Positions 12,951 to 34,530 of a stretch of 64,000 nucleotides of DNA are shown piece by piece. The DNA is taken from the sequence record MK509462; one strand, written 5' to 3'. Source of the stretch: Shigella phage MK-13. Below the pieces are notes generated by a model. It was given only the letters and a program-made list of their open reading frames with translations, was not told the origin of the DNA and searched no databases. The position numbers were made by a program, and so were the translations under genes. Within the stretch, counting starts at the first letter, position 1. Each line of letters opens with the position of its first letter.

Positions 12951-13559
12951 ATGTCACTGAAAAACTTTCTGAAACGCATCTTCACCACTGTTGAAGCCAA
13001 CGTCACCACGGGTCTGGATAAACTGACCGGCACCGAAAAGCGCCTGAACCTGGCCGCTCGCAAGCTGTCTGATGAAATCCGCCGCCTGGAAGAAGCCCGT
13101 GTCGCCAACGTTCGCAACGGCGTCAAGCTGAAGAAGACCGCAGAACAGAACCTGGGTGAAGCTGCCAAGCGCGAAGAAGTCCTGAAGGACGCCATCGCTC
13201 GCGGTGTCACGCCAACCCGCGCCGACGCCCTGATTGTCCTGCATCGCCGTCGTATTGGCGAAGCCCTGTTGGCTCAGGTGAAGGACATCGAAGCAAGCAG
13301 CGACAAACTGAACGGTGCGATCATTCAGCTGGGTGACAAACTGGACGAAGTGAAGTCCAACCTCGAGCTGGTTCGTGTTCAAAAAGAGACGAACGACCTG
13401 GGTCTGGTGCTCCCTGAAGATATCGATTATGCCGCTGGCATGACCACCATCGATATCGATGCCATCCTGCGCGAAACCGAAATCGCTGATTCGAGCTACT
13501 CAGCTAACAGCCCGTCGTCTATCGAAGCTGACAACTACCTCGCCAGCCTGAGCAAATAA
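12951..13559 (+). CDS. PspA/IM30-like coiled-coil protein (candidate membrane-stress or remodelling protein)
   Basis: N-terminal amphipathic FLKRIFTTVEANV resembles the PspA N-terminus (FSRFADIVNANI); rest is heptad-rich coiled coil; inference only. Confidence 0.4.
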   Translation: MSLKNFLKRIFTTVEANVTTGLDKLTGTEKRLNLAARKLSDEIRRLEEARVANVRNGVKLKKTAEQNLGEAAKREEVLKDAIARGVTPTRADALIVLHRRRIGEALLAQVKDIEASSDKLNGAIIQLGDKLDEVKSNLELVRVQKETNDLGLVLPEDIDYAAGMTTIDIDAILRETEIADSSYSANSPSSIEADNYLASLSK

Positions 13560-13601
13560 CATCGGAGGGGCTTATGCCCCTCTATCACTTCGGGGGATCT
13601 T

Positions 13602-14135
13602 ATGATCAATCTTGATTCTTTCGGCATACTCACTGGTGTTGCTGCTTTCGTTCTTTTGTGTATTGGCAGTGCCTGGCTGAGAGGTCGACTGGAGAAACGG
13701 GAAGTCTTGAAGCGAGATCGTGTTGACATCCACAAAATAATGCTGGATAGAACTTGCAAACATGGTCCCAGCGGTGACTTCCGTTTGTATTATTTGTCGG
13801 ATGAAGTCACCCCTTCGGAATTCTTCAATTATGCGATGACTGGGCTGCATTGGCCGGAGATAAATGGCGTTGTTCAGAAAAACGATTACGTGTGCGCGAA
13901 TATGTTCTATCTGAACAAGCATGGGGAACGTGACGATCTGCGGATGTGGTTCTTTGGAAGAGAGGAACAAAGAGGGTTCGTAAAAGAACTTGCTCTCTTG
14001 CTTAACACGTACGAAAAGGCTGGTTGCCCGCCACTAGAGGTGGAAGAATCAGTAGAATCCATCGTGGCTCGCGCCCGTGGTGAAACCGTGGATCTACTGA
14101 ACAAATACGGCTTTGTCTGGGCGGAGGGTTCGTGA
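13602..14135 (+). CDS. Membrane-anchored protein (N-terminal TM helix)
   Basis: 177 aa; hydrophobic N-terminus ILTGVAAFVLLCIGSAWL. Confidence 0.45.
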   Translation: MINLDSFGILTGVAAFVLLCIGSAWLRGRLEKREVLKRDRVDIHKIMLDRTCKHGPSGDFRLYYLSDEVTPSEFFNYAMTGLHWPEINGVVQKNDYVCANMFYLNKHGERDDLRMWFFGREEQRGFVKELALLLNTYEKAGCPPLEVEESVESIVARARGETVDLLNKYGFVWAEGS

Positions 14136-14326
14136 TGGATACAGAAACATTTGCGGTCATCATCAGCATAACAATCGCTCTGGCATCCATTGGTATGCTT
14201 GGGCATTTTGAATCCTTGGTAGGCGCGTTTAGGGAGTTCTTGCAAAAACGCAAGCGTGCTAGAGAATTGGACCGACTTCCACATACTGACCTCATCGTGC
14301 ATAATGCCAGGAGGAGGCGCAAATGA
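14132..14326 (+). CDS. Small membrane protein
   Basis: 64 aa, hydrophobic segment AVIISITIALASIGMLG; ATGA overlap. Confidence 0.35.
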   Translation: MMDTETFAVIISITIALASIGMLGHFESLVGAFREFLQKRKRARELDRLPHTDLIVHNARRRRK

Positions 14327-14514
14327 AGTTCATTGAGACGGTAATGTCGGTTGTTATGACAGTCGGGGCATTGTTTGGCATAGCGTTGCTGTTCTTATGG
14401 TTCTTCTACATCGGTGTACGGTACTTAGAACACAAGAAACGCCGTACTAAGAAAGGGCGTCCAAAGAACGTCGACATCATTATCAGCCAAGCAAGATCCC
14501 GCACCCGCCAATAA
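14323..14514 (+). CDS. Small membrane protein with basic C-terminus
   Basis: 63 aa; TM-like VMSVVMTVGALFGIALLFLWFFYIGV followed by a KR-rich tail; ATGA overlap. Confidence 0.4.
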   Translation: MKFIETVMSVVMTVGALFGIALLFLWFFYIGVRYLEHKKRRTKKGRPKNVDIIISQARSRTRQ

Positions 14515-14525
14515 TCTATTGAAGT

Positions 14526-14560
14526 CCCCAGGGTTATAATAGCAGCACATATAACCCTGG
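14526..14560 (+). other. Intergenic hairpin (cagggttata...tataaccctg) carrying TATAAT in its 5' arm, directly upstream of the ligase RBS
   Basis: 10-bp inverted repeat; shares the 12-mer tataatagcagc with the hairpin at 3941. Confidence 0.4.
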
Positions 14561-14569
14561 AGACACCAC

Positions 14570-15994
14570 ATGATCCCTATCCTCGAAACAGTTCACCGAC
14601 TTCGCGAGACCAAAGGTAGCAATGCGAAGAAAGCTGTACTGACCGAAGCATTCAAGAACAATCCTGACTTGGCAGACTTCCTGCAATATGTCTATGACCC
14701 AATGACGTCTTTCTATCGTACCGAGTTGAAGCTCAGCGCGTACCCTCGCATGCTCGTGCGTGAAAAGACTGACGACATCAGCGAAGTCTATGACGTCCTC
14801 GATCAGATGGCGCAGCGTCTTGTCGGCGGTCAAAAGGCTGATGCCCTGCTGGCCTCTGTTGCTCTGAAGATGGACCCACAGTACCACGAACTCATCCAGA
14901 TGATCCTGGACCGTGATATCAAGGCGGGTATCGCCGAGAAGGGTATTAACGCCGCATTCAACGCTGCTGGGGGTACAGGTCGCCTGATCAACATTCTTCC
15001 GTATCATCGTTATGACAACATGACGATTGACCTGCTGAAGAAGATGGACTTCAAGCGCGGTGTCTACAGCCAGCTGAAGTCAGACGGTATGTTCGCCAAC
15101 ATCATCTGTCGATACAATAAAGAGCCTGAGATTCGCTCGCGCTCCGGTTCCCTTATCGCAGGCGGTTCGGTCGACAATCTGTCGCTGGTATTCAAAGATC
15201 TGATCTACGATGCGGGGATTGGTGAGAGTGTGTTCCATGGTGAACTTCTCGTTGTTGACCTCAAGTCGAATGCTATCCTACCTCGTGCTGTCGGCAACGG
15301 CAAACTCAACAGTGTGATTCAGACGGGTGAACCTCTGGAAGATCGTTATCAGGTGATCTACCGGGTGTGGGACGTCGTTCCTTACGAACAATGGTTCAAT
15401 GCCGAGCGCGTGGGCACCCCGTATGAGCGCCGCTTCGATATCATCCAGCAGTTGTTTGACGAAGACGATGGTCTGGTGCAGGTGCAGGAAACTCGTGTTG
15501 TTCACTCATTTGCCGAAGCTGTCGACCACTTCAAAGACGCGCTGGCTCGTAAAGAAGAAGGCACGATCTGTAAGGCCGCCGACATGCCGTGGGAAGATGG
15601 GACTTCCTCTGAAGGTCTGAAGCTGAAAATGGAAGTGGAGTGTGACCTTGAAATTGTTGGTTTCAACGAAGCCGACAAGAAGGGCAAACACGCCAAGACC
15701 TTTGGCTCCCTGCTGTGTAAGACTTCCGATGGCTTGCTTGTTGTTGGCGTCTCAGGGATCTCGGATGAGCTGAGGCTCCGGATGTGGGAGAACCAGGGCG
15801 ACTACATTGGCAAGATTGCCGCAGTGCTCTCCAATGGCGTACAGGATAAGACAGATGATGCGCTGAAGTCATTGTTCCTGCCACGCCTTGCGGAAATCCG
15901 TATTGACAAGAAAGTGGCCAACACGCTGGATGAAGTCTATGCGATTCAAAAAGCGTACATCGAAAACATCGTGTTCCTGTTGGAGTCTGCATAA
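14570..15994 (+). CDS. ATP-dependent DNA ligase (T4 gp30-like)
   Basis: 474 aa; adenylation motif I SQLKSDGMFA (T4 AQLKADGARC) with collinear flanking similarity. Confidence 0.8.
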   Translation: MIPILETVHRLRETKGSNAKKAVLTEAFKNNPDLADFLQYVYDPMTSFYRTELKLSAYPRMLVREKTDDISEVYDVLDQMAQRLVGGQKADALLASVALKMDPQYHELIQMILDRDIKAGIAEKGINAAFNAAGGTGRLINILPYHRYDNMTIDLLKKMDFKRGVYSQLKSDGMFANIICRYNKEPEIRSRSGSLIAGGSVDNLSLVFKDLIYDAGIGESVFHGELLVVDLKSNAILPRAVGNGKLNSVIQTGEPLEDRYQVIYRVWDVVPYEQWFNAERVGTPYERRFDIIQQLFDEDDGLVQVQETRVVHSFAEAVDHFKDALARKEEGTICKAADMPWEDGTSSEGLKLKMEVECDLEIVGFNEADKKGKHAKTFGSLLCKTSDGLLVVGVSGISDELRLRMWENQGDYIGKIAAVLSNGVQDKTDDALKSLFLPRLAEIRIDKKVANTLDEVYAIQKAYIENIVFLLESA

Positions 15995-25144: not shown

Positions 25145-25458
25145 AACAATACCCCTTTCAGAGCCAAAACAGAAAGCACACCGATAATCAACCATGTCGG
25201 GATAATCGGCTTGCAATTCATGTGGGTTATCCCACATGTAATCTCTGGGCTGCCTTGTATAGAAACATGGTCGGCGGTTGCTCTTAATGTCATCACACTA
25301 CCCATCAATACGATAGGTCTGACGTAATAGCCCGTTTCTGTTCTTTTCACGATACAAGGAGAGGAGAAACGCAAGTTGGGATCTCCTCCCCGATAACCCG
25401 TGAACTCCACCTTCTCCACTTCAGAAGGCACTTTCTGACCAGGAAAATAAATTTTCAT
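25141..25458 (-). CDS. Small protein with C-terminal TM helix
   Basis: 105 aa; C-terminal [19 protein letters not shown]. Confidence 0.35.
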
Positions 25459-26033
25459 ATTTCAATCCCCAGATTGGTATAGAGCAGCTCGGCCAATGTC
25501 ACAGGGCGCTTGAATTGTTCCCAGCTGCAGTTCAGGTATTCGCGTTCTTCACGCATTTCGCCGTGAAGATGACCATGGATATTATACGCCCAGCGGTCTA
25601 ATTGATAAGGAACGTGAGTGGTCAGCACACGACCAACCGGAGTGTCACGCTCATACATGGCACCGAAGGAGCTAATCCATCCCTCTTGATACAGCTGCAT
25701 CAACATCTTGAAGCTGTCATGGTTGCCTTGCGCCACCCTGATGATAAAGTTCGGACGCCAGTCATCGGGAACTGGGCGGCGCTTGAACTCATCAATGTTC
25801 CGCTTGGCACCCTCGCGCATCAGGCGAATGAACCCCTCAGCCCCGATGAAGCAGATGTCGCCTGCAAGTTCAAGGACGTCTCGGGACTTCAGTCCCTGAT
25901 AGATACTGTCAATGACCGCAGCGTCGTGGGCTTCCTGTGTGTCGAACCCACGGGGCTTGAAGATCTTCTTGTGTCCAAGGTGGGTGTCGCCCAGATACTT
26001 TACAATTCCTGCCATTATGGTCTCCTCAACCAT
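25455..26033 (-). CDS. Calcineurin-like metallophosphoesterase
   Basis: GDTHLG, GDICF, GNHD and HGHLHG motifs in canonical order. Confidence 0.65.
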
Positions 26034-26341
26034 TCTAAAATCGGTACGTTCACAAATCCTTTATGCCAGCGATGTGGTTTGTGACCTCTGTTGTGTTCGA
26101 GCAAACACGTGTCCGGTGGGACACTGAAGTGGATGCCGTCGATGTCGTAATAATTCCCATCAATCAGAGTGTACACGTGGCCTTCAATCTGACTGTAATG
26201 GATCTCTGCTTGAGGGTACACGTGCTTCAACAACAGAGCAACCTGATAGCACTTCCCGTTCTTTCCAACATATTCGACATCCACCTGTTGTGGAAACACA
26301 TCCTTGACGAGGTTTATCAACATAGTGATGTCGTTCACCAC
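26015..26341 (-). CDS. Hypothetical protein
   Basis: 108 aa ORF. Confidence 0.4.
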
Positions 26342-26781: not shown

Positions 26782-27356
26782 TCAAGCGCGGCGTCATAAC
26801 GAGGATCATGATAGACCATGCCTTCCAGTTCCCACGCCTTGATGCCAGCGTAGCGATCCTGTTGCCCGACACCCTTCACCCAGCTCACGATGTCGAAGGT
26901 GTGGTGGTAATCCCATGGCTCGTTGGAGTCCTGCTTGCACGTCACCTCAATGATGTGCTGAGCCTTGCGCAGATCGAACAAGTTACGGTCACACCAGTCA
27001 ACCGAGCGCGGGTCTACCCCAAGACGATGGCATCCCTTGCGGATTTCATCGGCCAGCTGGAAGATAGAGATGTCCTGCTCAGTCGGGTATAGACTGACGG
27101 CGCGAGCCGCATCACACGGGTTGCGTTTACCCGTCCCCAACCACCATTCTACCGTCCCCTGGTCCTTCACGCGACCGAGTTCGATCTGCTCTTTGACATT
27201 CAGCTTGATGAACGTCGTGCGCTCCTCAACCAGTTGCTGAAGAGTATAACGCTTGGTCAGGTCGGCGATGGTATGTGCCCAGGACAACACGACTGCATCA
27301 TCCCAGCGACCCAGAGTCTCGCTGTCGGCCACTGCCAAGAAGTTAGACTTGTACAT
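26724..27356 (-). CDS. Hypothetical protein (possible DEDD-type 3'-5' exonuclease)
   Basis: 210 aa; weak DxE (ADSET), H..FD and Y...D spacing reminiscent of DnaQ-like exonucleases; low confidence. Confidence 0.3.
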   Translation of the reverse strand: MYKSNFLAVADSETLGRWDDAVVLSWAHTIADLTKRYTLQQLVEERTTFIKLNVKEQIELGRVKDQGTVEWWLGTGKRNPCDAARAVSLYPTEQDISIFQLADEIRKGCHRLGVDPRSVDWCDRNLFDLRKAQHIIEVTCKQDSNEPWDYHHTFDIVSWVKGVGQQDRYAGIKAWELEGMVYHDPRYDAALDWLRIQKTMEDLMGLEVVG

Positions 27357-27971
27357 TTACGCCTCCTCGTCGATGATTTCTTGTTCATCTTCGACAATCA
27401 TGATACCATCTTCAATCAGATCCGACAGATCCATCAGATCATCATCGAACCCGTCTCCTTCCCTGATATAGAAGACTGGGACGACACGACGGCGGGTCTC
27501 TTCATACACGCTTTCAGCGATCCGGTTAATATGGCGCACTACGCTGTAGAGGTTCAGACCACCGATGCCACAGCCGATAGCAGGCAGGCCGACATAGACG
27601 GTTTCGTCTTTAGTTGCTTCCACAATTTCGTGAACCTGCTCAAACAGGGTCTGAACAGAACTGATGACAGACGGCATGCGGGCATTCGGACCTGGATAGA
27701 ACTGAGTGTAGAGGTTCGCGCCCCAAACGCCCTTGCTGTGGTCGAATGCATAGGACATGCCACCCAGGCGTTGCTCTGGACCACGAGGGTCGTTCGCATC
27801 GGCTTCACGCAGGGCGGGGAAGTTGTTGCCGATATGCAGAGCAATACCCGCGCCCATGGTAGACCAGCAGTTGGCACCATGGGCAAAGATGTTGATCAGA
27901 TTAAAGCTGCAGGCGGCTTTCAGTAAATCACCACCGTTGATTACATATGTGGTCATGCGTACTGTCTCCAT
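27357..27971 (-). CDS. Macro domain protein (ADP-ribose binding/processing)
   Basis: HGANCWSTMGAGIALHI matches the macro N-x(4)-GGG-VxxAI region and VGLPAIGCGIGGLN matches the PAISTG-VYGYP region. Confidence 0.5.
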   Translation of the reverse strand: METVRMTTYVINGGDLLKAACSFNLINIFAHGANCWSTMGAGIALHIGNNFPALREADANDPRGPEQRLGGMSYAFDHSKGVWGANLYTQFYPGPNARMPSVISSVQTLFEQVHEIVEATKDETVYVGLPAIGCGIGGLNLYSVVRHINRIAESVYEETRRRVVPVFYIREGDGFDDDLMDLSDLIEDGIMIVEDEQEIIDEEA

Positions 27972-28195
27972 TCAATAATGCTGTTGTCAATGCATTTAAC
28001 GTAGAAGATGCCAGAACGATGACGACAGTCGGACATCTGTATGATGAAGTTGTCACCGTTGCGCACAAGCGTACCAACATGGATACCCCGCGCTGCCAAA
28101 CGAGAGATGATCTCTTTGCTCAGTCTGTCCATGTAACCCGCAACAGACGCAGGCTCAAAACAACGCTCAAACAGGTTTTCAAATTCTGGGTTCAT
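27953..28195 (-). CDS. Hypothetical small protein
   Basis: 80 aa ORF. Confidence 0.4.
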   Translation of the reverse strand: MNPEFENLFERCFEPASVAGYMDRLSKEIISRLAARGIHVGTLVRNGDNFIIQMSDCRHRSGIFYVKCIDNSIIEWRQYA

Positions 28196-28220
28196 TTTGT
28201 CTTACCAAACAAGGGGTCAA

Positions 28221-28238
28221 GGCGGTAATGATACCGCC
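28221..28238 (-). other. Intergenic hairpin ggcggtaatgataccgcc flanked by T-runs
   Basis: 6-bp GC stem; TTTTTCTTC on plus strand; TATTGAAGAA motif adjacent on the minus strand. Confidence 0.4.
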
Positions 28239-28245
28239 TTTTTCT

Positions 28246-28656
28246 TCAATAGAGGTCTTCGGAAAAGAGTTCACGGAATGGGGTTGTCTTCAGGCGCACC
28301 TGATTGATTTGTCCGGCTTCACGGGCTACGACGCAAGCCTCTTCACGAGTGAGGAAGTTGCCCTGATTGTCGATAAAGCCCTGTTCACGGGTATGGGTGG
28401 ATTTAATCACACCAGCCTCTTTCAGGATCTTGAGCTGGCTGTTCATGAATTTGCTGTGGTGACGGTCGGCAACGACGATCACGTCACCATATTTGTTGGC
28501 GGCAGCGACCACACGGCGCTCCCAGGCACCTTCGGCAGGAAGGTCACGGGTGTACAATGGAACCATCGTATCACCGATGTCATTCCCCTTCACCTGTGAG
28601 AACAACTTGCCTTCAGTGCCCGTTGGGAGTTCGCGAAAATAACCTAGTAATTTCAT
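28246..28656 (-). CDS. Hypothetical protein
   Basis: 136 aa ORF. Confidence 0.45.
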   Translation of the reverse strand: MKLLGYFRELPTGTEGKLFSQVKGNDIGDTMVPLYTRDLPAEGAWERRVVAAANKYGDVIVVADRHHSKFMNSQLKILKEAGVIKSTHTREQGFIDNQGNFLTREEACVVAREAGQINQVRLKTTPFRELFSEDLY

Positions 28657-28659
28657 AAT

Positions 28660-28977
28660 CTATTCAATCCAAATTTCAGGTTCAGGGATGTCGACCATAT
28701 CCACTGTCTGGTTCTTCAGATCATGGAAACAGTCGCCGAGGAATTGTATTTTGCCGTCGGTCAGGAACAGATGGCAACGTGATGCTGGATCAGATGCATC
28801 CACCAGCAGGCTCGGCGTGAACGTAGGAGCAACGACATTGTTGTTCCACGACCACATCGGACCTTGGGCATCACCCTTCACGCGATATGGGTGAAGCATA
28901 TCACATCCAGGGCAGTGAAAATACAGGGAATCACCCATAGACAGAAGTTTAGGACTCAGAAGCTGTGACATGGTCAA
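28660..28977 (-). CDS. Hypothetical protein with Cys/His cluster
   Basis: 105 aa; HCPGCD...H...CH pattern. Confidence 0.4.
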   Translation of the reverse strand: MTMSQLLSPKLLSMGDSLYFHCPGCDMLHPYRVKGDAQGPMWSWNNNVVAPTFTPSLLVDASDPASRCHLFLTDGKIQFLGDCFHDLKNQTVDMVDIPEPEIWIE

Positions 28978-29261
28978 CCCTCTACAGTAGCATCAGGATC
29001 GTATGGGCGCAATTCACCAACCAGCTTCGGAAAGAGTGCAAGCCCAAACAGGTTGAAAGAACGCATGGTGCCGACCATTGCAACATCTTCTCCTTCCTCG
29101 ATATCTTTCAGGGCGCACATTGGGTAATATTCATCGACCTCTGGGTCTTCCGTCTCACCATAGAGACCAAACGCCACCTCTTCTTTGATAAAGCGAGGAA
29201 CCAGGAAATCAAATAGGAAAATGATGAATACCACAGGTGCCGCAGAACGGAGATAGAACAT
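28974..29261 (-). CDS. Hypothetical protein
   Basis: 95 aa ORF; ATGA coupling. Confidence 0.4.
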   Translation of the reverse strand: MFYLRSAAPVVFIIFLFDFLVPRFIKEEVAFGLYGETEDPEVDEYYPMCALKDIEEGEDVAMVGTMRSFNLFGLALFPKLVGELRPYDPDATVEG

Positions 29262-29303
29262 AGCACAACCCTCGCAGGTGAGGAGGGGCGAACCCCTCCT
29301 ATG

Positions 29304-30635
29304 TTATAGGCCAAGAGCCTTTTCAAGGTCATCAAGGTCTTCAGTGTAAAGATCGATGTCCTCTTTCTTACTTAATTCCTTGTGCTGTGCTTCAAGGTTC
29401 TCAATCTGCTTGAGTAGGCGCTCACGGGCGTCCAGGGTGATGGATGACAGCGGCATCTTGAACAACTCGTCAAGATCACCGCCAAAGTCCGGGTAGTCCT
29501 GCATGAACAGAGACTTCAGCACGTCAATCTTTTGGCGGAGATCAACACGCGTCGCCCATTCAATGAACACCGCCCGGTCACCCAGCTTGCGGATCCTGTC
29601 TGCCATGTCCTTCAACAGATACTGGCGACGATCTTCATACCGCGACAGGCGATAATTGAAGAACGGCAGCAACATATCCTGCCAACCCGCATAACGATGG
29701 ATTACCCCGTCTTCATCCCATGCTGTCCAAACAGGCTTGTTAGCAGAGTACAACTTGAACATCTGCTCAACCTGTTCATCACTCAGCTTAGAGAGTTCAC
29801 CCCGCTTGAATACAACCGTGATATCCCAGCCGTCTTCGGTCGTGTCGTTGGCGTACTCGGTCAGGATACCAGCCTTGTACAGAGGCAGCAACACCTTGGT
29901 CTCATAGGTCTTGGCGAACCAACCCACTGGGACTTCGGTGATATGCAGGGTGGTGGCATTGACGCGACGGAAGATGCCGCGACTGTATGCTCTTCCTTCC
30001 TCAGTATAGCCTGTCTCCCCTTTGTAGCCGTTCCAGTACGGTTTTAAGTCTTTCGGGTCTTCGCCACGGAGAAGCGCTCTCAGGGCACTGAGCACGGACT
30101 TAACGCAATGACACGGGGTGTCGGTGGAATATCCGGTGCCGATACCATTGATCCCATTCACCAGGAACATAGGGAGGATAGGCAGGAAGAACTTCGGTTC
30201 CAGTCTTTCTTCACCAAGGTAATTGTATTCTAAAATACCCTCATCCTCCTTGCGGAAGATCTTGCGGATAACATCAGATATAGCCACCGAAATGTATCGG
30301 GCAGATGAAGCATCACGCCCCATGATAGAACCAAACTGGCCGTCGCGGTCAAAGTACGGGATGTTGTTCGTACCTGGGAACCCCTGAGCCATGTTCACGA
30401 TAGTGCCGCTCATGTTCTCACCACCAGACTTGTAGTTGGTCCGGGCGGCGGCGAACATACCAAGGCGGTCAACGATCTCCTCCTTGTTGTACTCAAGAGC
30501 AGCGAAAAGGATCTTGCGCTGGCTCGGCTTGAGGCTGTCAATCAGCTGAGGAATTTGACGGATGCTGTTGACCACAGAAAACTGCTTATGGTCAGTGTTG
30601 ACAAAGTCCGTTACAGTAATGCTCTTGGCAACCAT
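29304..30635 (-). CDS. DNA topoisomerase II medium subunit (T4 gp52-like, GyrA-like)
   Basis: Lies immediately downstream of the GyrB-like large subunit gene; start moved to the internal ATG preceded by AGGA just after the upstream stop. Confidence 0.6.
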   Translation of the reverse strand: MVAKSITVTDFVNTDHKQFSVVNSIRQIPQLIDSLKPSQRKILFAALEYNKEEIVDRLGMFAAARTNYKSGGENMSGTIVNMAQGFPGTNNIPYFDRDGQFGSIMGRDASSARYISVAISDVIRKIFRKEDEGILEYNYLGEERLEPKFFLPILPMFLVNGINGIGTGYSTDTPCHCVKSVLSALRALLRGEDPKDLKPYWNGYKGETGYTEEGRAYSRGIFRRVNATTLHITEVPVGWFAKTYETKVLLPLYKAGILTEYANDTTEDGWDITVVFKRGELSKLSDEQVEQMFKLYSANKPVWTAWDEDGVIHRYAGWQDMLLPFFNYRLSRYEDRRQYLLKDMADRIRKLGDRAVFIEWATRVDLRQKIDVLKSLFMQDYPDFGGDLDELFKMPLSSITLDARERLLKQIENLEAQHKELSKKEDIDLYTEDLDDLEKALGL

Positions 30636-30636
30636 C

Positions 30637-32550
30637 TTATTCATCCTCAGTTTCAAACAGGCAAACATCGCTAAACCAGGTTTTGCGGTAATCGGCGGCC
30701 TCATCACCGAAGCCATTCTTCAGTGACTGTTGATAGCCATCGTCCAGCGTGACCGTCGTAGTATACGCATCCAGGTTGTTTAGAATACGTTTGAAGTCTT
30801 CAGTGCTGTTACCGCCAAGACCTTTCAGATATTTCTTCTTCGTGATCTTCTTGGCATCAGGCGTCTTCAGGAACTCCTCATACTCGGCGTTGTTCATGAA
30901 CTCATGCATCACCTTACCACACCATACACGCATGTAAGGGGTGCGCAGGAGCTTCAGCCTGCCCTGACGGACGTACTCCGGCCAGTAGGTGCAATACAGG
31001 GTGATCAACAACCCACGGATGTGAATACCGTCATCGTCCGCATCGGTAGCCACAACAGTCTGTGGGTAGCGGCTGATGTCAAGTGGCTGACCGGGCACTG
31101 CGCCGCCGTGAATCGTACACAGGTTCTTGAACTCTTCATTGTTCATCACCTTTGTGCGCGGGGCGTTCAGGCAGTTGATGAACTTACCACGAAGCGGGAA
31201 CAATCCGATCTTTTTGGTGTCACGGGCGTTCAGGATAGGATTGGAGGCGCTATCACCCTCGGTCAGTAGCAGGGAGCATCCGCTGCGGTCACCACGGGCG
31301 GTCGCCGGGTAATACTTCTCAATCTCACGATAATCCCGCTTGCTGATATCCTTCTTGGCCTTTTCAAACTCAGCATCATCCTGCTCATTGCGCAGGGAAG
31401 CCAGTTCTTTGCTCAGACCAGCCATAACGAACTCAAGCGCCTTGCGGATGAGTTTGTCACTCGGTTTGTACGACGTACCGAACTGGCTTACAGGAGTGGT
31501 CATGCGCTCCTTGGTCTGGCTGTCAAAGCGCGGGTTGTTGATGTCGACGGCAATGAACAAGGACATGTGGTTCTTGATCATGGCAGGTTTCAGCTCGGTC
31601 TTGAACTTCTTCACCAGCTGAGGACGAATCGCAGCCACGATCTGGTCGGCGACATAATCAACGTGAGGACCACCGATGTGGGTGGCAATAGAGTTCACGT
31701 ATGATGCGTGCATGAACGTACCGGATGAAGGGGCTACAGCAACCGACCATTCACCAGATTCATCAACAGCGGAACCAGCATGGAAGTAATCAACGAAGTG
31801 ACCAAAGCGGTCAATCCGGATTTGCTTCCCGTTCAGCACAACCTTCAGGCGCGGGTTACACGCAGCCACTTCAAACGCGCGGCGATAGATCATCAGCAGG
31901 TTGTTCTGGTCAAGCCCTTTGACGCCCAGGCGAGCATAGTCAGGAATCCAGGCGATGGTGGTGCCGAACTCTTTCGGTGTATTGCTGATGACCGGATTAG
32001 ACTTCTTGCTCATGTTGTCTTCAAACAGCTGGGCATAAGACTTCTTGCCGTCGCTGGTAGCAACACGGAACCACTTTGAGAACACGTTGACGAGCGAAGC
32101 CCCTTCACCGTTCTGGCCACCAGACTTCTGGTTGTTGTACTCTTCGTCTTCGTCGTTGAAGTTGCTGCCTGCATACAGGGAGCCGAAGAGCATCTCAGGC
32201 AACCACTCGTTGGTAACACCGTGCTTCACAACAGGGATGCCCCCGTTATCGGCCACGATGATTTGACCGTTCATCGGGGAAACCGTGACAGTGATTTCCG
32301 TCAGGGATTTACCCTCAGGCGTCTTGCTGTGGTCAACACAGTTGGTGATGATTTCATCAAACTGTTTGATCAGGGCGGGGGAGTACTCAAAGTTGTCACG
32401 GAAAATGACTTGGTCTTTGGTTGGGTCGTACACCCACACCGTACCAACAGACGAACGGATGCTGCCCAGATGACGCTCTGGGCGAAGGAGGATATGCTCG
32501 ACGTGAGTGAGCTTCTTGTACTTGCGTTCAATATCAATTTTATCAGACAT
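30637..32550 (-). CDS. DNA topoisomerase II large subunit (T4 gp39-like, GyrB-like ATPase + Toprim), single unsplit ORF
   Basis: 637 aa; N-terminal GHKL region (HILLRPERHLGS, FDEIITNCVDH, VADNGGIPV) as in T4 gp39; continuous reading frame. Confidence 0.75.
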   Translation of the reverse strand: MSDKIDIERKYKKLTHVEHILLRPERHLGSIRSSVGTVWVYDPTKDQVIFRDNFEYSPALIKQFDEIITNCVDHSKTPEGKSLTEITVTVSPMNGQIIVADNGGIPVVKHGVTNEWLPEMLFGSLYAGSNFNDEDEEYNNQKSGGQNGEGASLVNVFSKWFRVATSDGKKSYAQLFEDNMSKKSNPVISNTPKEFGTTIAWIPDYARLGVKGLDQNNLLMIYRRAFEVAACNPRLKVVLNGKQIRIDRFGHFVDYFHAGSAVDESGEWSVAVAPSSGTFMHASYVNSIATHIGGPHVDYVADQIVAAIRPQLVKKFKTELKPAMIKNHMSLFIAVDINNPRFDSQTKERMTTPVSQFGTSYKPSDKLIRKALEFVMAGLSKELASLRNEQDDAEFEKAKKDISKRDYREIEKYYPATARGDRSGCSLLLTEGDSASNPILNARDTKKIGLFPLRGKFINCLNAPRTKVMNNEEFKNLCTIHGGAVPGQPLDISRYPQTVVATDADDDGIHIRGLLITLYCTYWPEYVRQGRLKLLRTPYMRVWCGKVMHEFMNNAEYEEFLKTPDAKKITKKKYLKGLGGNSTEDFKRILNNLDAYTTTVTLDDGYQQSLKNGFGDEAADYRKTWFSDVCLFETEDE

Positions 32551-32599
32551 CGGTCTATCCCGTCAATGGTAAACACACAAGATTATGTATGGGCTTGGG

Positions 32600-33184
32600 T
32601 TATAGACCAAATTTAGTACGCCACTTTTCAACTTTGTGTTCAATAGCGTGCTCTACCTTAACAATAGTGCTTTTGAGATTATTGTTATGGTCGCAAGCCA
32701 ATTTGGCTGTGTGTTTGATGACACCGTTCACCAACTCGACCAGATTATCATCTGTTCTTTGTGGTTGATTGAGCAACCTGGTAATGCGACCTTTGTAGTG
32801 GTTGATCATCGCCATTTGCTTGTCGAGACTATCAACCCCACCACAGAACCAGTAATCTTCCAGGGTGTGTTGTGTAAGATCACTTGTTCGGTTAGCCTGT
32901 GACAGAGAGAATATCAATGAATCGAATATCTCGTCTTTGGTCATAGAACCGTGTTGTTGAGTATGCTGGTAGTCGCAAACATACAGCAAGTCCAGAGCAG
33001 AGATAATAACGTCAGCCACTTCACCGTTTAAAGGTTCTGACCCAGCGATACCATACAACACATCAGACAGTTCGCAAGTTTCTTCAACGAGTTTGCAATA
33101 CACAAAAAAGGATGGTCGATTTGGCGTAATCTGGCTCAGTTCGTATGATGTTTCTAACACACGACGAATAAAATTCATTTTCAT
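32600..33184 (-). CDS. MazG-like nucleotide pyrophosphohydrolase domain protein
   Basis: KLVEETCELSDV ... GEVADVIISALDLLYV resembles the MazG EExxEL / DxxxxL signature. Confidence 0.4.
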   Translation of the reverse strand: MKMNFIRRVLETSYELSQITPNRPSFFVYCKLVEETCELSDVLYGIAGSEPLNGEVADVIISALDLLYVCDYQHTQQHGSMTKDEIFDSLIFSLSQANRTSDLTQHTLEDYWFCGGVDSLDKQMAMINHYKGRITRLLNQPQRTDDNLVELVNGVIKHTAKLACDHNNNLKSTIVKVEHAIEHKVEKWRTKFGL

Positions 33185-33684
33185 TTCAGAGTTCCTTGTA
33201 TACGGATACGATTAATGTGTGCAATGATATAGTCCATAGAGGTTTGAAAACTATATTTCCCGTTCCGAACGTATGCATGGATCAGAGGGAGTCGACTGTA
33301 CGCCAATCTGATCTTCAGCAGGTCGGGCATTGTCTGGAGTTTCATGCTGGTGGCAAACAGAATGTCCCGCTTGAATTCTTCGGATGATGGATCAAGGACA
33401 GCGATGCGAGTGGCCGCCAACCCCTGCCCATATTGCTTGGCTTCGTAGCCGTCGAGCAAGCGCAGGTTGTCATCCCTGTACTTTAGCCAATACCAGTAGC
33501 CTTCCATGGAGTTGAACACGCCGTGCTCATAGGTAGTCACTGGATGATGGGCAAAATGCGAGAGGAAGCGCCCGAGTTCCGTTTGGCTCTGGCTGTAGAT
33601 GTTGAAGTGATTCTTACCCTCTGTTTCAGGGGTCATCTTGTTCTGTGGAACGCTCATTAACAGCATCATGATGTAGTTTCTCAA
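33181..33684 (-). CDS. NADAR-like (YbiA-like) domain protein
   Basis: FNIYSQSQTELGRFLSHFAHHPV...G.FNSMEGYW parallels YbiA INFYSTSDDYGDFSNFAAWPI...SEHYF; C-terminal part diverges. Confidence 0.4.
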   Translation of the reverse strand: MRNYIMMLLMSVPQNKMTPETEGKNHFNIYSQSQTELGRFLSHFAHHPVTTYEHGVFNSMEGYWYWLKYRDDNLRLLDGYEAKQYGQGLAATRIAVLDPSSEEFKRDILFATSMKLQTMPDLLKIRLAYSRLPLIHAYVRNGKYSFQTSMDYIIAHINRIRIQGTLK

Positions 33685-33711
33685 ATCAAAGTATTGCTGT
33701 GTGCAGCCAGT

Positions 33712-33909
33712 TTATTTCTTCACACACCCCAAATAGGAGCAGAGTAAACCGACAGCAGAAAATATAATGGCAAGTAGGTAACGAGTCACCTGCATTTGTG
33801 ATGTTGTAAGCAGGCTGACAACGCTTTCGAGCGCCAGGAACAAACAAACTCCAGCGACTACACCGAACTTGAACGAATTACGTTCTCTGTTAATTCTGAA
33901 CTTGTACAT
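33712..33909 (-). CDS. Small membrane protein
   Basis: 65 aa with two hydrophobic helices. Confidence 0.35.
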   Translation of the reverse strand: MYKFRINRERNSFKFGVVAGVCLFLALESVVSLLTTSQMQVTRYLLAIIFSAVGLLCSYLGCVKK

Positions 33910-33958
33910 TGTGCGCCTCCTGTTAGGGAAATAGGGGAGTTTCCTCCCCTGTAACTAT

Positions 33959-34459
33959 CTAGCCCAGAAACACTACTAAAGTCAAATTTGTGAAAGCACT
34001 GCGGCTATTGCGCAACATTTCATGGGCGGCAGCCAAGCGTTTCGGATCATGAAGTGTATCAGAGAACACGATGATGTTTGCTTTATCGATACCCGTGCCC
34101 ATGTAATGGGAGATGGTTGTCGTGTGCTGTTTCTTGTCTACATCGGGTGGCGGTACATCCGCGCCTGCTCGGGAGTGGAAGAAATAATCGCGTTCACGAA
34201 CGCTATGGAAGACGCCCATGATGTTGAGGTTGTTCTCTGTCTGGAAATCATAGGACAGAATCTTCTTCAGCGCGGCGGTATGCCCAGTCTGGCGCAGCAT
34301 GCGATAGTACAGTATGTTTCCAGGACAGGTGGGGTCCGTCACGCCTCCCCTCGATTGGCGATCTTTCTGGATTTCATACGCATCCAGGATAAGTTGTTGG
34401 ACCATTCCAATATGGGCAGTCAGGGAGATTTCTACTTTACGCTTGATCATGGATTTCAT
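33959..34459 (-). CDS. Hypothetical protein
   Basis: 166 aa ORF. Confidence 0.45.
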   Translation of the reverse strand: MKSMIKRKVEISLTAHIGMVQQLILDAYEIQKDRQSRGGVTDPTCPGNILYYRMLRQTGHTAALKKILSYDFQTENNLNIMGVFHSVRERDYFFHSRAGADVPPPDVDKKQHTTTISHYMGTGIDKANIIVFSDTLHDPKRLAAAHEMLRNSRSAFTNLTLVVFLG

Positions 34460-34530
34460 TTGGTGTATCCTCAGTTAGGTTCCGCTCATGGGGAACGGGT
34501 CCATTATACACCGAATACTGGAAATGAAAA

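What the first reader, a model, noticed from the sequence alone, without database searches (positions are those of the whole stretch)
27357..33684. Macro-domain protein and NADAR-like protein: possible defence against ADP-ribosylating host systems
27357..27971 carries both macro-domain signature regions and 33181..33684 resembles NADAR (YbiA-like) proteins. Both families are known to remove ADP-ribose from proteins or nucleic acids. Having both suggests countering ADP-ribosylating toxins or DNA ADP-ribosylation, or processing ADP-ribose derivatives from RNA repair. This is not part of the classical T4 gene set.
Basis: inference. Interest (0 to 1): 0.7.

Follow-up and report, generated by a model that had tools for sequence, protein, structure and literature searches.

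The report
Two phage ADP-ribose-removing counter-defence enzymes
This Ackermannviridae phage carries a macro-domain gene and a very divergent NADAR-like gene that are relatives of the two phage T4 enzymes (AdfM/Tk.4 and AdfN/gp30.3) already shown to defeat the bacterial DarTG defence, which tags phage DNA with ADP-ribose. It is a real find of an already known kind.

Summary
Both observations hold. The window is an Agtrevirus (Ackermannviridae) genome, not a T4-like one.

**Macro ORF, 27357..27971(-).**
- It is a confident macro fold, and its family profile matches DarG macrodomains best (E 6e-17).
- It is a clear homologue of T4 Tk.4 (34% identity; hhalign 99.9%), recently named AdfM and shown genetically to protect T4 from DarTG2.
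- It lacks the DarG/TARG1 catalytic Lys. It carries instead the His/Asn/Gln set of SCO6735, a proven thymidine-ADP-ribose DNA hydrolase.

**NADAR-like ORF, 33181..33684(-).**
- It has no Pfam or NCBIfam hit.
- Its family profile aligns end to end with the gp30.3/AdfN family (hhalign 96.4%, E 1e-9).
- E61, K68 and H136 fall on AdfN E36, K43 and H123.

**Most likely function.** These are two independent orphan-antitoxin-like glycohydrolases that strip DarT2 (thymine) and DarT1 (guanine) ADP-ribose from phage DNA. This is inferred by homology and was not tested here.

The claim "not part of the classical T4 gene set" is wrong: T4 has both genes. The two genes are not a module; nine predicted intervening ORFs, including both topoisomerase II subunit genes, lie between them.

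**Verdict.** New members of a known kind; modest interest.

The parts
27357..27971 (-). Macro-domain gene, a homologue of T4 Tk.4/AdfM. The maximal ORF is 204 aa. The probable CDS is 27357..27956 (199 aa), starting at the ATG at 27956.
   Evidence: ORF. Start and RBS. Homologues of 199 aa. Pfam, NCBIfam and PADLOC hits. Family profile against the PDB. AF2 model and Foldseek. T4 Tk.4 comparison: BLASTP 34% identity, E 2e-16; hhalign 99.9%.
27870..27881 (-). Codons for H31-G32-A33-N34 of the macro protein (motif 'AHGANC'). H31 and N34 are invariant in the family. They align to SCO6735 H24 and N27, and N34 aligns to DarG N22.
   Evidence: Alignment A2. Profile alignments to 5e3b and 5m31. Residue roles from PMC9411070 and PMC13309987. 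Coordinates.
27702..27704 (-). Codon for Q90 of the macro protein (motif 'NLYTQ'), invariant in the family. It sits at the position of DarG K80, TARG1 K84 and SCO6735 Q85.
   Evidence: T4 Tk.4 has the same 'NLYTQ' motif (sequence, alignment).
27558..27584 (-). Codons for 'PAIGCGIGG' (residues 130-138), the second glycine-rich ADP-ribose (diphosphate) binding loop of the macro fold.
27360..27464 (-). Acidic C-terminal extension of the macro protein (residues 170-204). It has 16 Asp/Glu and 1 Lys/Arg in 35 residues and is modelled as a structured helix-strand-helix. It is absent from T4 Tk.4 (155 aa).
   Evidence: Composition. AF2 secondary structure and pLDDT. Alignment.
33181..33684 (-). NADAR-like gene (phrog_652), a sister family of T4 gp30.3/AdfN. 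The maximal ORF is 167 aa from a TTG. The probable CDS is 33181..33669 (162 aa), starting at the ATG at 33669.
33481..33504 (-). Codons for E61...K68 ('EGYWYWLK'), the Glu-x6-Lys dyad of NADARs. It aligns with AdfN E36/K43 and with P. nicotianae NADAR E43/K50. E61 is invariant in 194/194 family domains. K68 is present in only 31/194, chiefly the Ackermannviridae-like members plus about eleven others.
   Evidence: Residue roles from PMC11257639 and PMC11543638.
33277..33279 (-). Codon for H136 ('LPLIHAY'), conserved in 193/194 family domains. It aligns with H123 of gp30.3, the histidine that defines 'phage NADARs' in place of the YbiA Glu or the DarG1 Asp.
   Evidence: Definition from PMC11543638 and PMC11125620.
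32600..33184 (-). MazG-like pyrophosphatase gene. Its ATG overlaps the stop codon of the NADAR-like gene (ATGA, 33184..33181). This is context only; no functional link was established.
   Evidence: PHROG 1247, E 1e-37. Sequence. A MazG-like ORF lies immediately downstream in 21 of 23 Ackermannviridae-type loci.

Best explanation
The window encodes two separate, single-domain 'orphan antitoxin' enzymes. They sit in a block of early and replication-type genes (rII, topoisomerase II, DexA).

1. The macro protein is an AdfM/Tk.4-type ADP-ribosylglycohydrolase. It binds the ADP-ribose attached by host DarT2-type toxins to thymine in single-stranded phage DNA and hydrolyses the base-ribose bond. It would use the SCO6735-type active site: Asn34 positions Gln90 on the distal ribose, water is activated through the backbone, and the glycine loops hold the diphosphate.
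2. The NADAR-like protein is a divergent sister of AdfN/gp30.3. It removes ADP-ribose from guanine N2 placed by DarT1-type toxins. It would use Glu61 (distal ribose), Lys68 (phosphate) and His136 (the third catalytic position).

Together they would let replication and transcription of phage DNA proceed in DarTG1- or DarTG2-carrying Salmonella, Shigella and E. coli.

Shown here: folds, homology, and conservation of the residues that are essential in characterised relatives. Inferred: enzymatic activity, substrate (DNA base-linked ADP-ribose), timing of expression, and the anti-DarTG phenotype.
For: Macro protein:
- Homologue of T4 Tk.4. Knocking out tk.4 sensitises T4 to DarTG2.
- DarG macrodomains are the best profile matches in the PDB, and the NCBIfam and PADLOC DarG models match.
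- H31, N34 and Q90 are invariant and align with SCO6735 H24, N27 and Q85. SCO6735 cleaves dT-ADP-ribose, rescues cells from DarT, and loses activity in Q85A and almost all of it in N27S.

NADAR-like protein:
- NADAR fold only.
- Full-length profile-profile match to the AdfN family, with E61, K68 and H136 on E36, K43 and H123. AdfN E36A and K43A lose anti-DarTG1 activity.
- All phage NADARs tested so far hydrolyse guanine-ADP-ribose.
- Domain fusions of this family with Macro (10 of 100), DUF4326 (13), SLOG-type domains and canonical NADAR tie it to ADP-ribose biochemistry.

Both genes:
- They are conserved in the same order in 22 of 23 Ackermannviridae-type loci.
- Co-occurrence of Macro and NADAR in large myoviruses is a described pattern.
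Against: - No experiment exists for either protein or for any Ackermannviridae phage. A literature search for DarTG plus Ackermannviridae found nothing relevant.
- The T4 AdfM evidence is genetic and comes from a preprint. Its enzymology is inferred.
- The NADAR-like family is only remotely related to AdfN: single-sequence BLASTP is not significant and no Pfam model detects it.
- Across the wider family the canonical Lys is not conserved (31 of 194), so the ancestral substrate may differ.
- Structurally, the macro model matches Poa1p (an ADP-ribose-1''-phosphatase) and TARG1 (a protein de-ADP-ribosylase) as well as it matches DarG.
- Iyer et al. argue that most phage Macro and NADAR domains act on soluble ADP-ribose derivatives.
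- T4 gp30.3 does not rescue E. coli from DarT1 without phage DNA, so substrate context matters. Ackermannviridae DNA is reported to carry hypermodified thymidine (my own knowledge, not tested here).
Confidence: 0.55

Rival explanations
1. One or both enzymes act on soluble ADP-ribose derivatives rather than on DNA. Candidates are ADP-ribose-1''-phosphate or Appr>p from tRNA repair, O-acetyl-ADP-ribose, and NAD-derived immune signals such as cyclic ADP-ribose isomers (Thoeris-type). The enzymes would then quench signalling or clear by-products.
For: - Poa1p (an ADP-ribose-1''-phosphatase) is among the top structural and profile matches of the macro model.
- T4 Tk.4 has long been annotated 'A1pp phosphatase', and many homologues are annotated 'phosphatase'.
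- The NADAR-like domain is repeatedly fused to SLOG and DUF4326 domains. Iyer et al. predict that these process soluble ADP-ribose derivatives, and argue that this is the main role of phage Macro and NADAR domains.
- The canonical phosphate-binding Lys is variable in the wider family.
Against: - The experimentally characterised closest relatives act against DNA ADP-ribosylation: T4 AdfM genetically, SCO6735 biochemically, and AdfN and other phage NADARs biochemically and genetically.
- No RNA ligase, KptA or 2H phosphoesterase genes are annotated in the corresponding region of the near-identical phage P46FS4.
Confidence: 0.2
2. The macro protein reverses protein mono-ADP-ribosylation, in the manner of TARG1 or of SCO6735 acting on proteins. 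The modification could come from host ART toxins or from a phage ART acting on host proteins.
For: - TARG1 is the best Foldseek match.
- SCO6735, which shares the Gln-type site, also hydrolyses ADP-ribosylated protein.
Against: - The TARG1 catalytic dyad is absent: K84 is replaced by Q90, and D125 by a Gly in 'GIGG'.
- No ART gene is annotated in the matching 70 kb of P46FS4.
- The T4 orthologue has a DarTG2 phenotype.
Confidence: 0.08
3. The NADAR-like protein is a nucleotide- or base-metabolism N-glycosidase, in the manner of YbiA acting on riboflavin intermediates. It would work with the translationally coupled MazG-like pyrophosphatase, for example in nucleotide-pool sanitation linked to the phage's modified-base pathway, and would be unrelated to ADP-ribose.
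For: - There is an ATGA overlap with the MazG-like gene, and a MazG-like ORF lies immediately downstream in 21 of 23 Ackermannviridae-type loci.
- A MazG-like gene lies about 1 kb away in Pseudomonas phage NoPa.
- In unrelated phages, family members recur next to ThyA-like, DHFR and RNR genes.
Against: - The neighbours are typical early-gene blocks rather than a conserved operon. MazG-like was not detected near the gene in any of the 57 other IMG/VR loci, using a single-sequence query.
- The residues that bind ADP-ribose in NADARs are kept.
- The fusions are with ADP-ribose-related domains.
Confidence: 0.07
4. One or both proteins act without catalysis. They would bind ADP-ribosylated DNA or the DarT toxin itself. 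For the macro protein, the acidic C-terminal extension could act as a DNA mimic, as the DarG C-terminal domain and ICP1 AdfB do.
For: - SCO6735, DarG and TARG1 catalytic mutants still inhibit DarT by interaction.
- AdfA and AdfB are binding inhibitors.
- The 35-residue tail with 16 acidic residues is specific to the Ackermannviridae-type proteins.
Against: - Active-site residues are invariant across hundreds of sequences, which argues for catalysis.
- AdfN shows no stable association with DarT1.
- The tail is modelled as packed structure rather than as a free mimic.
Confidence: 0.05

Closest known systems
T4 Tk.4 = AdfM (anti-DarT factor, macrodomain); bioRxiv 10.1101/2025.11.20.689424
   Same: - Clear homologue: 34% identity, BLASTP E 2e-16; hhalign 99.9%, E 9e-33.
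- Same motifs: AHG(A/C)NC, MG(A/S)G(I/V)A, NLYTQ, P.IG.GIG.
- Both match the PADLOC DarG model about equally well.
- Both are single-domain genes in early-gene regions.
   Different: - The window protein has an extra, structured, acidic 35-residue C-terminal extension.
- The host phage belongs to a different family (Ackermannviridae, not Straboviridae).
- There is no phenotype data for this protein.
Streptomyces coelicolor SCO6735 (PDB 5E3B), a thymidine-ADP-ribose DNA hydrolase; PMC9411070
   Same: - Same ALC1-like/TARG1/DarG class of macro fold; profile E 6e-14.
- Same active-site type: His, Asn and Gln replace the DarG/TARG1 Lys. H31, N34 and Q90 align with H24, N27 and Q85.
   Different: - It is a bacterial chromosomal protein.
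- V25 is a Gly here.
- SCO6735 has a longer basic mobile loop (K89, K94) that the phage protein lacks, where it has 'FYPGPNA'.
- Identity is low.
DarG2 macrodomain (T. aquaticus 5M31/5M3E, M. tuberculosis 5M3I) and PhiKZ AdfM (gp104); PMC13309987
   Same: - Best sequence-profile matches in the PDB (E 6e-17 and 3e-16).
- Asn22 is conserved as N34.
- Same proposed job: removing DarT2 ADP-ribose from thymine.
   Different: - The catalytic Lys80 (Lys78 in PhiKZ AdfM) is Gln here.
- There is no DarT-binding C-terminal domain, and no adjacent darT gene (orphan).
T4 gp30.3 = AdfN (Pfam PF08010 Phage_30_3), a His-type phage NADAR active against DarTG1; PMC11825919, PMC11125620
   Same: - Full-length profile-profile match at 96.4%.
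- The Glu-x6-Lys dyad and the defining His are all aligned, and both share the 'EG(Y/F)' motif.
- Single-domain protein of about 150-160 aa.
   Different: - It is a separate family (phrog_652). It has no significant pairwise similarity to gp30.3 and does not reach the PF08010 or PF08719 thresholds.
- It has its own signature: 'HINIYS', 'EGYWYWL', 'LPL.HYY'.
- It occurs in Ackermannviridae, jumbo phages, and Vibrio, Pseudomonas and cyanobacterial phages rather than in T4-like phages.
- It is untested.
Canonical NADARs: E. coli YbiA (2B3W), DarG1 of G. lovleyi (8BAT), P. nicotianae NADAR (8BAU); PMC11543638
   Same: - E61 and K68 align with PnNADAR E43 and K50.
- The 'AK..G' helix is conserved.
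   Different: - Identity is 16-17%.
- The third catalytic position is His, not Glu or Asp.
- In the Ackermannviridae clade, the Arg of the 'GR' motif and the Trp that contact ADP-ribose in PnNADAR are not conserved.
- There is no linked darT gene.

Membership tests
Macro domain superfamily (ALC1-like / TARG1 / DarG class) | Three-layer alpha/beta/alpha macro fold | tested here: met
   AF2 pLDDT 96.1, pTM 0.92. Foldseek against the PDB gives 190 hits at E<=1e-3. The top hits are TARG1 (TM 0.80 on the target), Poa1p and DarG (TM 0.76).
Macro domain superfamily (ALC1-like / TARG1 / DarG class) | Curated profile membership (Pfam PF01661 gathering score) | tested here: not met
   16.9 bits against a cut-off of 22, E 0.006, although the match spans model positions 2-116 of 118. 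More distant homologues in the same search do carry PF01661. The family profile against PDB macrodomains reaches E 6e-17. The miss therefore reflects divergence, not absence.
Macro domain superfamily (ALC1-like / TARG1 / DarG class) | Two glycine-rich loops that bind the ADP-ribose diphosphate, plus a conserved Asn at the distal ribose | tested here: met
   'MGAGIA' (39-44), 'PAIGCGIGG' (130-138) and N34 are invariant or nearly so in 42 sequences. They align to the DarG, TARG1 and SCO6735 loops and to DarG N22.
DarG2 / TARG1 type hydrolases | Catalytic lysine (DarG K80, TARG1 K84) | tested here: not met
   The position is an invariant Gln (Q90, 'NLYTQ') in this family, including T4 Tk.4.
SCO6735-type thymidine-ADP-ribose hydrolases | Gln at the Lys position (Q85), held by Asn27, with His24 in the first motif | tested here: met
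   H31, N34 and Q90 align with H24, N27 and Q85 in the profile alignment to 5e3b. The roles of these residues come from PMC9411070. The SCO6735-specific Val25 is Gly32 here, and the longer basic loop is absent.
AdfM (anti-DarT factor, macrodomain) | Homology to T4 Tk.4 | tested here: met
   BLASTP 34% identity, E 2e-16. hhalign 99.9%, E 9e-33, over 149 columns.
AdfM (anti-DarT factor, macrodomain) | Protects the phage from DarTG2 and removes ADP-ribose from thymine in DNA | not testable with these tools
   Needs plaque assays and in-vitro hydrolysis. It is known only for T4 (genetic) and PhiKZ (genetic and biochemical).
NADAR superfamily (YbiA fold) | [quoted passage not shown] | tested here: met
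   [not shown]
NADAR superfamily (YbiA fold) | Curated profile membership (Pfam PF08719 NADAR or PF08010 Phage_30_3) | tested here: not met
   The window protein has no hit even at E<=1. None of 46 close homologues carries a precomputed Pfam domain. Five of 100 family representatives give sub-threshold PF08010 hits on this domain (best E 4.4e-6, 27 bits against 36). The PF08719 hit examined (P0202) lies on a separate tandem domain; the other three were not located.
NADAR superfamily (YbiA fold) | Conserved Glu (distal ribose) and Lys seven residues later (phosphate): PnNADAR E43/K50, E. coli C7 E88/K95, AdfN E36/K43 | tested here: met
   E61 and K68 align with these residues. E61 is invariant (194/194). 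K68 is present in the window protein and its clade but in only 31 of 194 domains family-wide.
Phage (gp30.3 / AdfN-type) NADARs | Histidine at the third catalytic position in the last strand (Glu in YbiA, Asp in DarG1) | tested here: met
   H136 is conserved in 193/194 domains and aligns with the invariant H123 of the gp30.3 family.
Phage (gp30.3 / AdfN-type) NADARs | Detectable homology to gp30.3 | tested here: met
   Profile-profile comparison gives 96.4%, E 1.4e-9, over 143 columns. A profile against the single gp30.3 sequence gives 77.7%. Pairwise BLASTP is not significant. It is a sister family, not a member of PF08010.
Phage (gp30.3 / AdfN-type) NADARs | Guanine-N2 ADP-ribose DNA glycohydrolase activity and protection from DarTG1 | not testable with these tools
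   Requires enzymology and phage genetics. No member of phrog_652 is known to have been tested. I could not determine whether AdfN-Bas60 or AdfN-Bas32 belong to this family, because their accessions sit in supplements that are not held.

The most novel reading that the evidence does not exclude
The NADAR-like protein represents a third, uncharacterised lineage of phage NADARs (phrog_652), with about 1,900 clusters at 50% identity.
- Most of its members have lost the canonical phosphate-binding Lys.
- The domain is often built into multi-domain Macro/SLOG/DUF4326 proteins.
- Its native substrate may therefore not be DarT1-modified guanine. It could be another base-linked or soluble ADP-ribose species, such as cytidine- or uracil-linked ADP-ribose or an NAD-derived immune signal.
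- The Ackermannviridae clade would then have re-acquired the Lys and been re-tuned to its own hypermodified DNA.
- Likewise, the acidic tail on the macro protein might add a DarT-binding or DNA-mimic function.
Probability: 0.15. Interest if true: 0.55.

Novelty: new member of a known kind. Interest (0 to 1): 0.3.

Why it matters
If the inference holds, Ackermannviridae phages, which are widely used as Salmonella, E. coli O157 and Klebsiella biocontrol and therapy candidates, carry a two-enzyme kit against both DarTG subtypes. That would extend the 'orphan antitoxin' counter-defence strategy (AdfM and AdfN) beyond T4-like and nucleus-forming phages.

The work also assigns a testable function to a large family of 'hypothetical proteins'. 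phrog_652 occurs in 574 phage genomes here and in about 1,900 clusters at 50% identity, and standard domain libraries miss it.

It further points out that T4 AdfM-type macrodomains use the Gln-type (SCO6735-like) active site rather than the DarG Lys-type site.

None of this would surprise a specialist. The value is in annotation and in choosing experiments, for example testing whether these enzymes are tuned to DNA with hypermodified thymidine.

Tried and rejected
- **Standard libraries for the NADAR-like ORF.** Pfam, NCBIfam and PADLOC gave nothing, and single-sequence phmmer against the PDB gave only a chance antibody hit. Only structure and profile-profile methods worked.
- **Promoter and terminator scan of 25-37 kb.** Promoter-like sites were no more frequent than in shuffled sequence (12 against 11.5), so no statement on transcription units or timing can be made from sequence.
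- **Supplementary tables** of Iyer et al. and Johannesman et al. are not held. I could not check whether Ackermannviridae NADARs or the tested AdfN-Bas60 and AdfN-Bas32 belong to this family.
- **tblastn with E. coli YbiA.** It finds 641 phage genomes dominated by other host genera (Staphylococcus, Streptomyces, Bacillus and others; Vibrio, Pseudomonas and Erwinia occur in both lists). It did not bridge to this family.
- **Gene-neighbourhood clustering** in 57 non-Ackermannviridae loci found no tight partner, only early and nucleotide-metabolism genes.
- **Lys68 versus Arg/Lys87 anti-correlation.** The Fisher test gives 5.5e-11. I do not treat it as evidence of compensation, because it is largely one clade and was not corrected for phylogeny.
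- **Position of DarG K80.** An early pairwise alignment placed it opposite G94. The profile alignment, checked against published residue numbers, places it opposite Q90. I use the latter.
- **Literature search for 'AdfM'** returned mostly irrelevant acronyms.

Full report
**What the window is.** A megablast of 27000-34500 finds 285 phage genomes. The best are Salmonella phage P46FS4 (97.6% identity over 100% of the query), then SW16-7, SKML-39 and Shigella phage Ag3. The annotated relative ChubbyThor is classified Ackermannviridae; Aglimvirinae; Agtrevirus. The window is therefore not T4-like, although it shares T4-type core genes (rIIA/rIIB, topoisomerase II, DexA, UvsX). All genes around the finding lie on the minus strand.

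**Observation 1: the macro ORF.**
- ORF 27357..27971(-) encodes 204 aa.
- The ATG at 27956 has GGAG 9 nt upstream and forms an ATGA overlap with the stop of the preceding ORF. Most homologues are 199 aa. The real product is therefore probably 199 aa.
- Alone it misses the Pfam Macro threshold (16.9 against 22 bits) but covers the whole model. It hits the macro part of the NCBIfam DarG model (E 4.7e-9) and the PADLOC DarG model (E 2e-8).
- A 42-sequence family alignment (A2) searched against PDB sequences gives M. tuberculosis DarG E 6e-17, T. aquaticus DarG E 3e-16, SCO6735 E 6e-14, TARG1 E 2e-13 and Poa1p E 6e-10.
- The AlphaFold model is very confident (pLDDT 96.1). Foldseek returns TARG1, Poa1p and DarG first.
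- Both signature loops are present and conserved.

**The macro protein is a Tk.4 homologue.** T4 does have this gene. tk.4 is annotated 'phosphatase; contains A1pp phosphatase motif'. The window protein matches it at 34% identity (E 2e-16) and at hhalign probability 99.9%. Relatives of the window phage are even annotated 'Tk.4 protein'. By tblastn the family occurs in 2,697 of 50,697 phage records, including T4-like phages and phages of Acinetobacter, Pseudomonas and Vibrio, alongside Ackermannviridae. A 2025 preprint shows that tk.4 is the single T4 gene conditionally required on a DarTG2 host and that a clean knockout is sensitised. The gene was renamed adfM. A DarG2-like AdfM in PhiKZ-type phages has been shown biochemically to remove DarT2 ADP-ribose from DNA.

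**Catalytic residues of the macro protein.**
- The DarG/TARG1 catalytic lysine (K80/K84) is indeed absent. The profile alignments, which I checked against the published numbering of 5M31 and 5E3B, place an invariant Gln (Q90, 'NLYTQ') at that position. T4 Tk.4 has the same motif.
- This is the arrangement of S. coelicolor SCO6735. There Gln85 replaces the lysine, Asn27 locks it in place, Q85A is inactive and N27S almost inactive. The enzyme cleaves thymidine-linked ADP-ribose on DNA more efficiently than DarG or TARG1 and rescues cells from DarT.
- Window H31, N34 and Q90 align with SCO6735 H24, N27 and Q85.
- The active site is therefore intact but of the Gln type. To my knowledge this has not been pointed out for T4 AdfM.

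**Observation 2: the NADAR-like ORF.**
- ORF 33181..33684(-) is 167 aa from a TTG. Homologues start at the ATG at 33669, giving 162 aa.
- It has no Pfam, NCBIfam or PADLOC hit. It falls in PHROG 652, 'unknown function'. None of 46 close homologues carries a Pfam domain.
- The family profile's best PDB hit is the P. nicotianae NADAR 8BAU, but only at E 0.14.
- In BFVD, hits beyond its own family are mostly annotated NADAR proteins of giant viruses and phages.

**Relation to T4 gp30.3/AdfN.**
- Pairwise BLASTP against gp30.3 is not significant. The family profile against the single gp30.3 sequence gives 77.7% over the N-terminal 54 columns.
- I built a gp30.3 family alignment (A4). hhalign of the two family profiles gives probability 96.4%, E 1.4e-9, over 143 columns, which is the whole domain.
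- The alignment puts window E61 on AdfN E36, K68 on K43 and H136 on H123.
- E36 and K43 are the two residues whose mutation abolishes AdfN function. The histidine is the residue that defines 'phage NADARs' against the Glu of YbiA and the Asp of DarG1.
- Sub-threshold PF08010 hits fall on this same domain in family representatives, whereas the canonical PF08719 hit examined (P0202) lies in a separate tandem domain.
- The protein thus belongs to a sister family of AdfN inside the NADAR superfamily, and current domain libraries do not capture it.

**Size and context of the family.**
- An exhaustive profile search finds 1,906 clusters at 50% identity.
- tblastn finds the family in 574 phage records: Ackermannviridae, jumbo phages (121Q, SPN3US, Serratia BF), and Vibrio, Pseudomonas and cyanobacterial phages.
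- Of 100 representatives, 13 are fused to DUF4326, 10 to Macro, and about 18 to SLOG-type domains (DprA-like, YAcAr, YpsA). Some are fused to a second, canonical NADAR. This is the architecture Iyer et al. describe for viral ADP-ribose-processing proteins. They also report that 27% of myoviruses have a NADAR and that Macro and NADAR co-occur in DNA viruses.
- Across 196 domain instances, E61 (194/194), H136 (193/194), K83 and K115 are essentially invariant. The canonical Lys (K68) is present in only 31, chiefly the Ackermannviridae-like members plus about eleven others. Most other members have Arg or Lys in the 'GR' motif instead.

**Arrangement of the two genes.**
- The two genes are 5.2 kb apart. 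Nine predicted ORFs lie between them, including both topoisomerase II subunit genes and a MazG-like gene.
- In 22 of 23 Ackermannviridae-type IMG/VR loci the macro gene lies 5-7 kb downstream of the NADAR-like gene, and 21 of the 23 also have a MazG-like ORF immediately downstream of it.
- One locus (L013) keeps the NADAR-like and MazG-like genes but lacks the macro gene and its neighbours. The genes therefore behave as independent accessory genes, not as an operon.
- In 57 other loci a Tk.4-type macro lies within 8 kb in about ten, one of them a fusion. Other recurrent neighbours are ThyA-like, DHFR, RNR, SLOG, Thg1-like and homing-endonuclease genes.
- Promoter-like sites in the region do not exceed chance, so early expression is inferred only from the company these genes keep.

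**Mechanism I commit to.** These are two orphan-antitoxin-like ADP-ribosylglycohydrolases that clean phage DNA.
- The macro protein acts as AdfM on thymine-linked ADP-ribose from DarT2, using a SCO6735-type Gln/Asn site.
- The NADAR-like protein acts as an AdfN analogue on guanine-linked ADP-ribose from DarT1, using Glu61, Lys68 and His136.
- Fold, homology and residue conservation are shown. Activity, substrate and phenotype are inferred. I put this at about 0.55.
- The main rival, at about 0.2, is action on soluble ADP-ribose derivatives. Its support is the Poa1p resemblance, the SLOG/DUF4326 fusions and Iyer et al.'s argument.
- Smaller rivals are protein de-ADP-ribosylation, a nucleotide-metabolism role with the coupled MazG-like gene, and non-catalytic inhibition.
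- Caveats: T4 gp30.3 works only in the context of T-even DNA. Ackermannviridae DNA is reported to contain hypermodified thymidine (my own knowledge, not tested here), so substrate tuning may matter.

**Verdict.** Both genes are new members of known kinds (AdfM-type macro; His-type phage NADAR, sister family to AdfN). Interest is modest. The useful outputs are the assignment of phrog_652 to the NADAR superfamily with a full catalytic triad, and the recognition of the Gln-type active site in the Tk.4/AdfM family.

Noticed in passing
window 33181..33184 (minus strand); MazG-like ORF 32600..33184: The stop codon of the NADAR-like gene overlaps the ATG of a MazG-like pyrophosphatase gene (ATGA), which suggests translational coupling. 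A MazG-like ORF lies immediately downstream in 21 of 23 Ackermannviridae-type loci. A MazG-like gene also lies about 1 kb from the family member in Pseudomonas phage NoPa. The MazG-like protein has no Pfam hit, only PHROG 1247.
   Followed up: partly
window 27360..27464 (macro protein residues 170-204): The macro protein has a 35-residue C-terminal extension with 16 Asp/Glu and 1 Lys/Arg. It is modelled with high confidence as helix-strand-helix. It is present in the Ackermannviridae-type proteins but not in T4 Tk.4. It could be a DNA-mimic or protein-interaction module; this is untested.
   Followed up: partly
NADAR-like family, window residues 68 and 87 (33481..33483 and 33424..33426): Across 196 domains, Lys/Arg at the canonical NADAR Lys position and Arg/Lys in the 'GR' motif are anti-correlated (9/25/134/24; Fisher 5.5e-11, not corrected for phylogeny). 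The Ackermannviridae clade has the Lys but lacks the Arg, and most other members are the reverse.
   Followed up: partly
L013 (IMG/VR UViG_2595698455, 152 kb Ackermannviridae-type contig), 13166..14690: This relative keeps the NADAR-like, MazG-like and topoisomerase genes. It lacks the macro gene, DexA and their neighbours: the small ORF after the topoisomerase medium subunit is followed almost directly by dCMP deaminase. The macro block is therefore dispensable and variable within the family.
   Followed up: partly
between window 32550 and 32600, and between 27356 and 27357, compared with relatives: There are insertion polymorphisms in relatives. ChubbyThor and several other phages carry an HNH homing endonuclease between the topoisomerase large subunit and the MazG-like gene. 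P46FS4 has an extra 381-nt ORF between dexA and the macro gene. The window has neither.
   Followed up: no
L006 (Pseudanabaena phage Pam2) 3998..4931; L060-L063: Some phages carry two adjacent paralogues of the NADAR-like family. In Pam2 both are annotated 'YbiA' and sit next to thymidylate synthase and ribonucleotide reductase genes. Four IMG/VR loci show the same tandem pair with a Tk.4-like macro about 4-5 kb downstream.
   Followed up: no
window 25455..26033, 26015..26341, 28246..28656, 28660..28977 (minus strand): The neighbouring small genes are of unknown role. They are a metallophosphoesterase (PHROG 547; weak hit to the ligase-associated PdeM), a Phage_YunG-like protein (PF24591), a phrog_839 protein annotated 'Arn.3-like' in relatives, and a DUF6527 protein. 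Any of them could be further host-takeover or anti-defence genes.
   Followed up: no
window 29304..30716 and 30637..32550 (minus strand): The maximal ORF of the topoisomerase II medium subunit overlaps the end of the large-subunit ORF by 80 nt. Relatives annotate a shorter medium subunit (443-454 aa), so the real start is probably downstream of the maximal ORF start.
   Followed up: no
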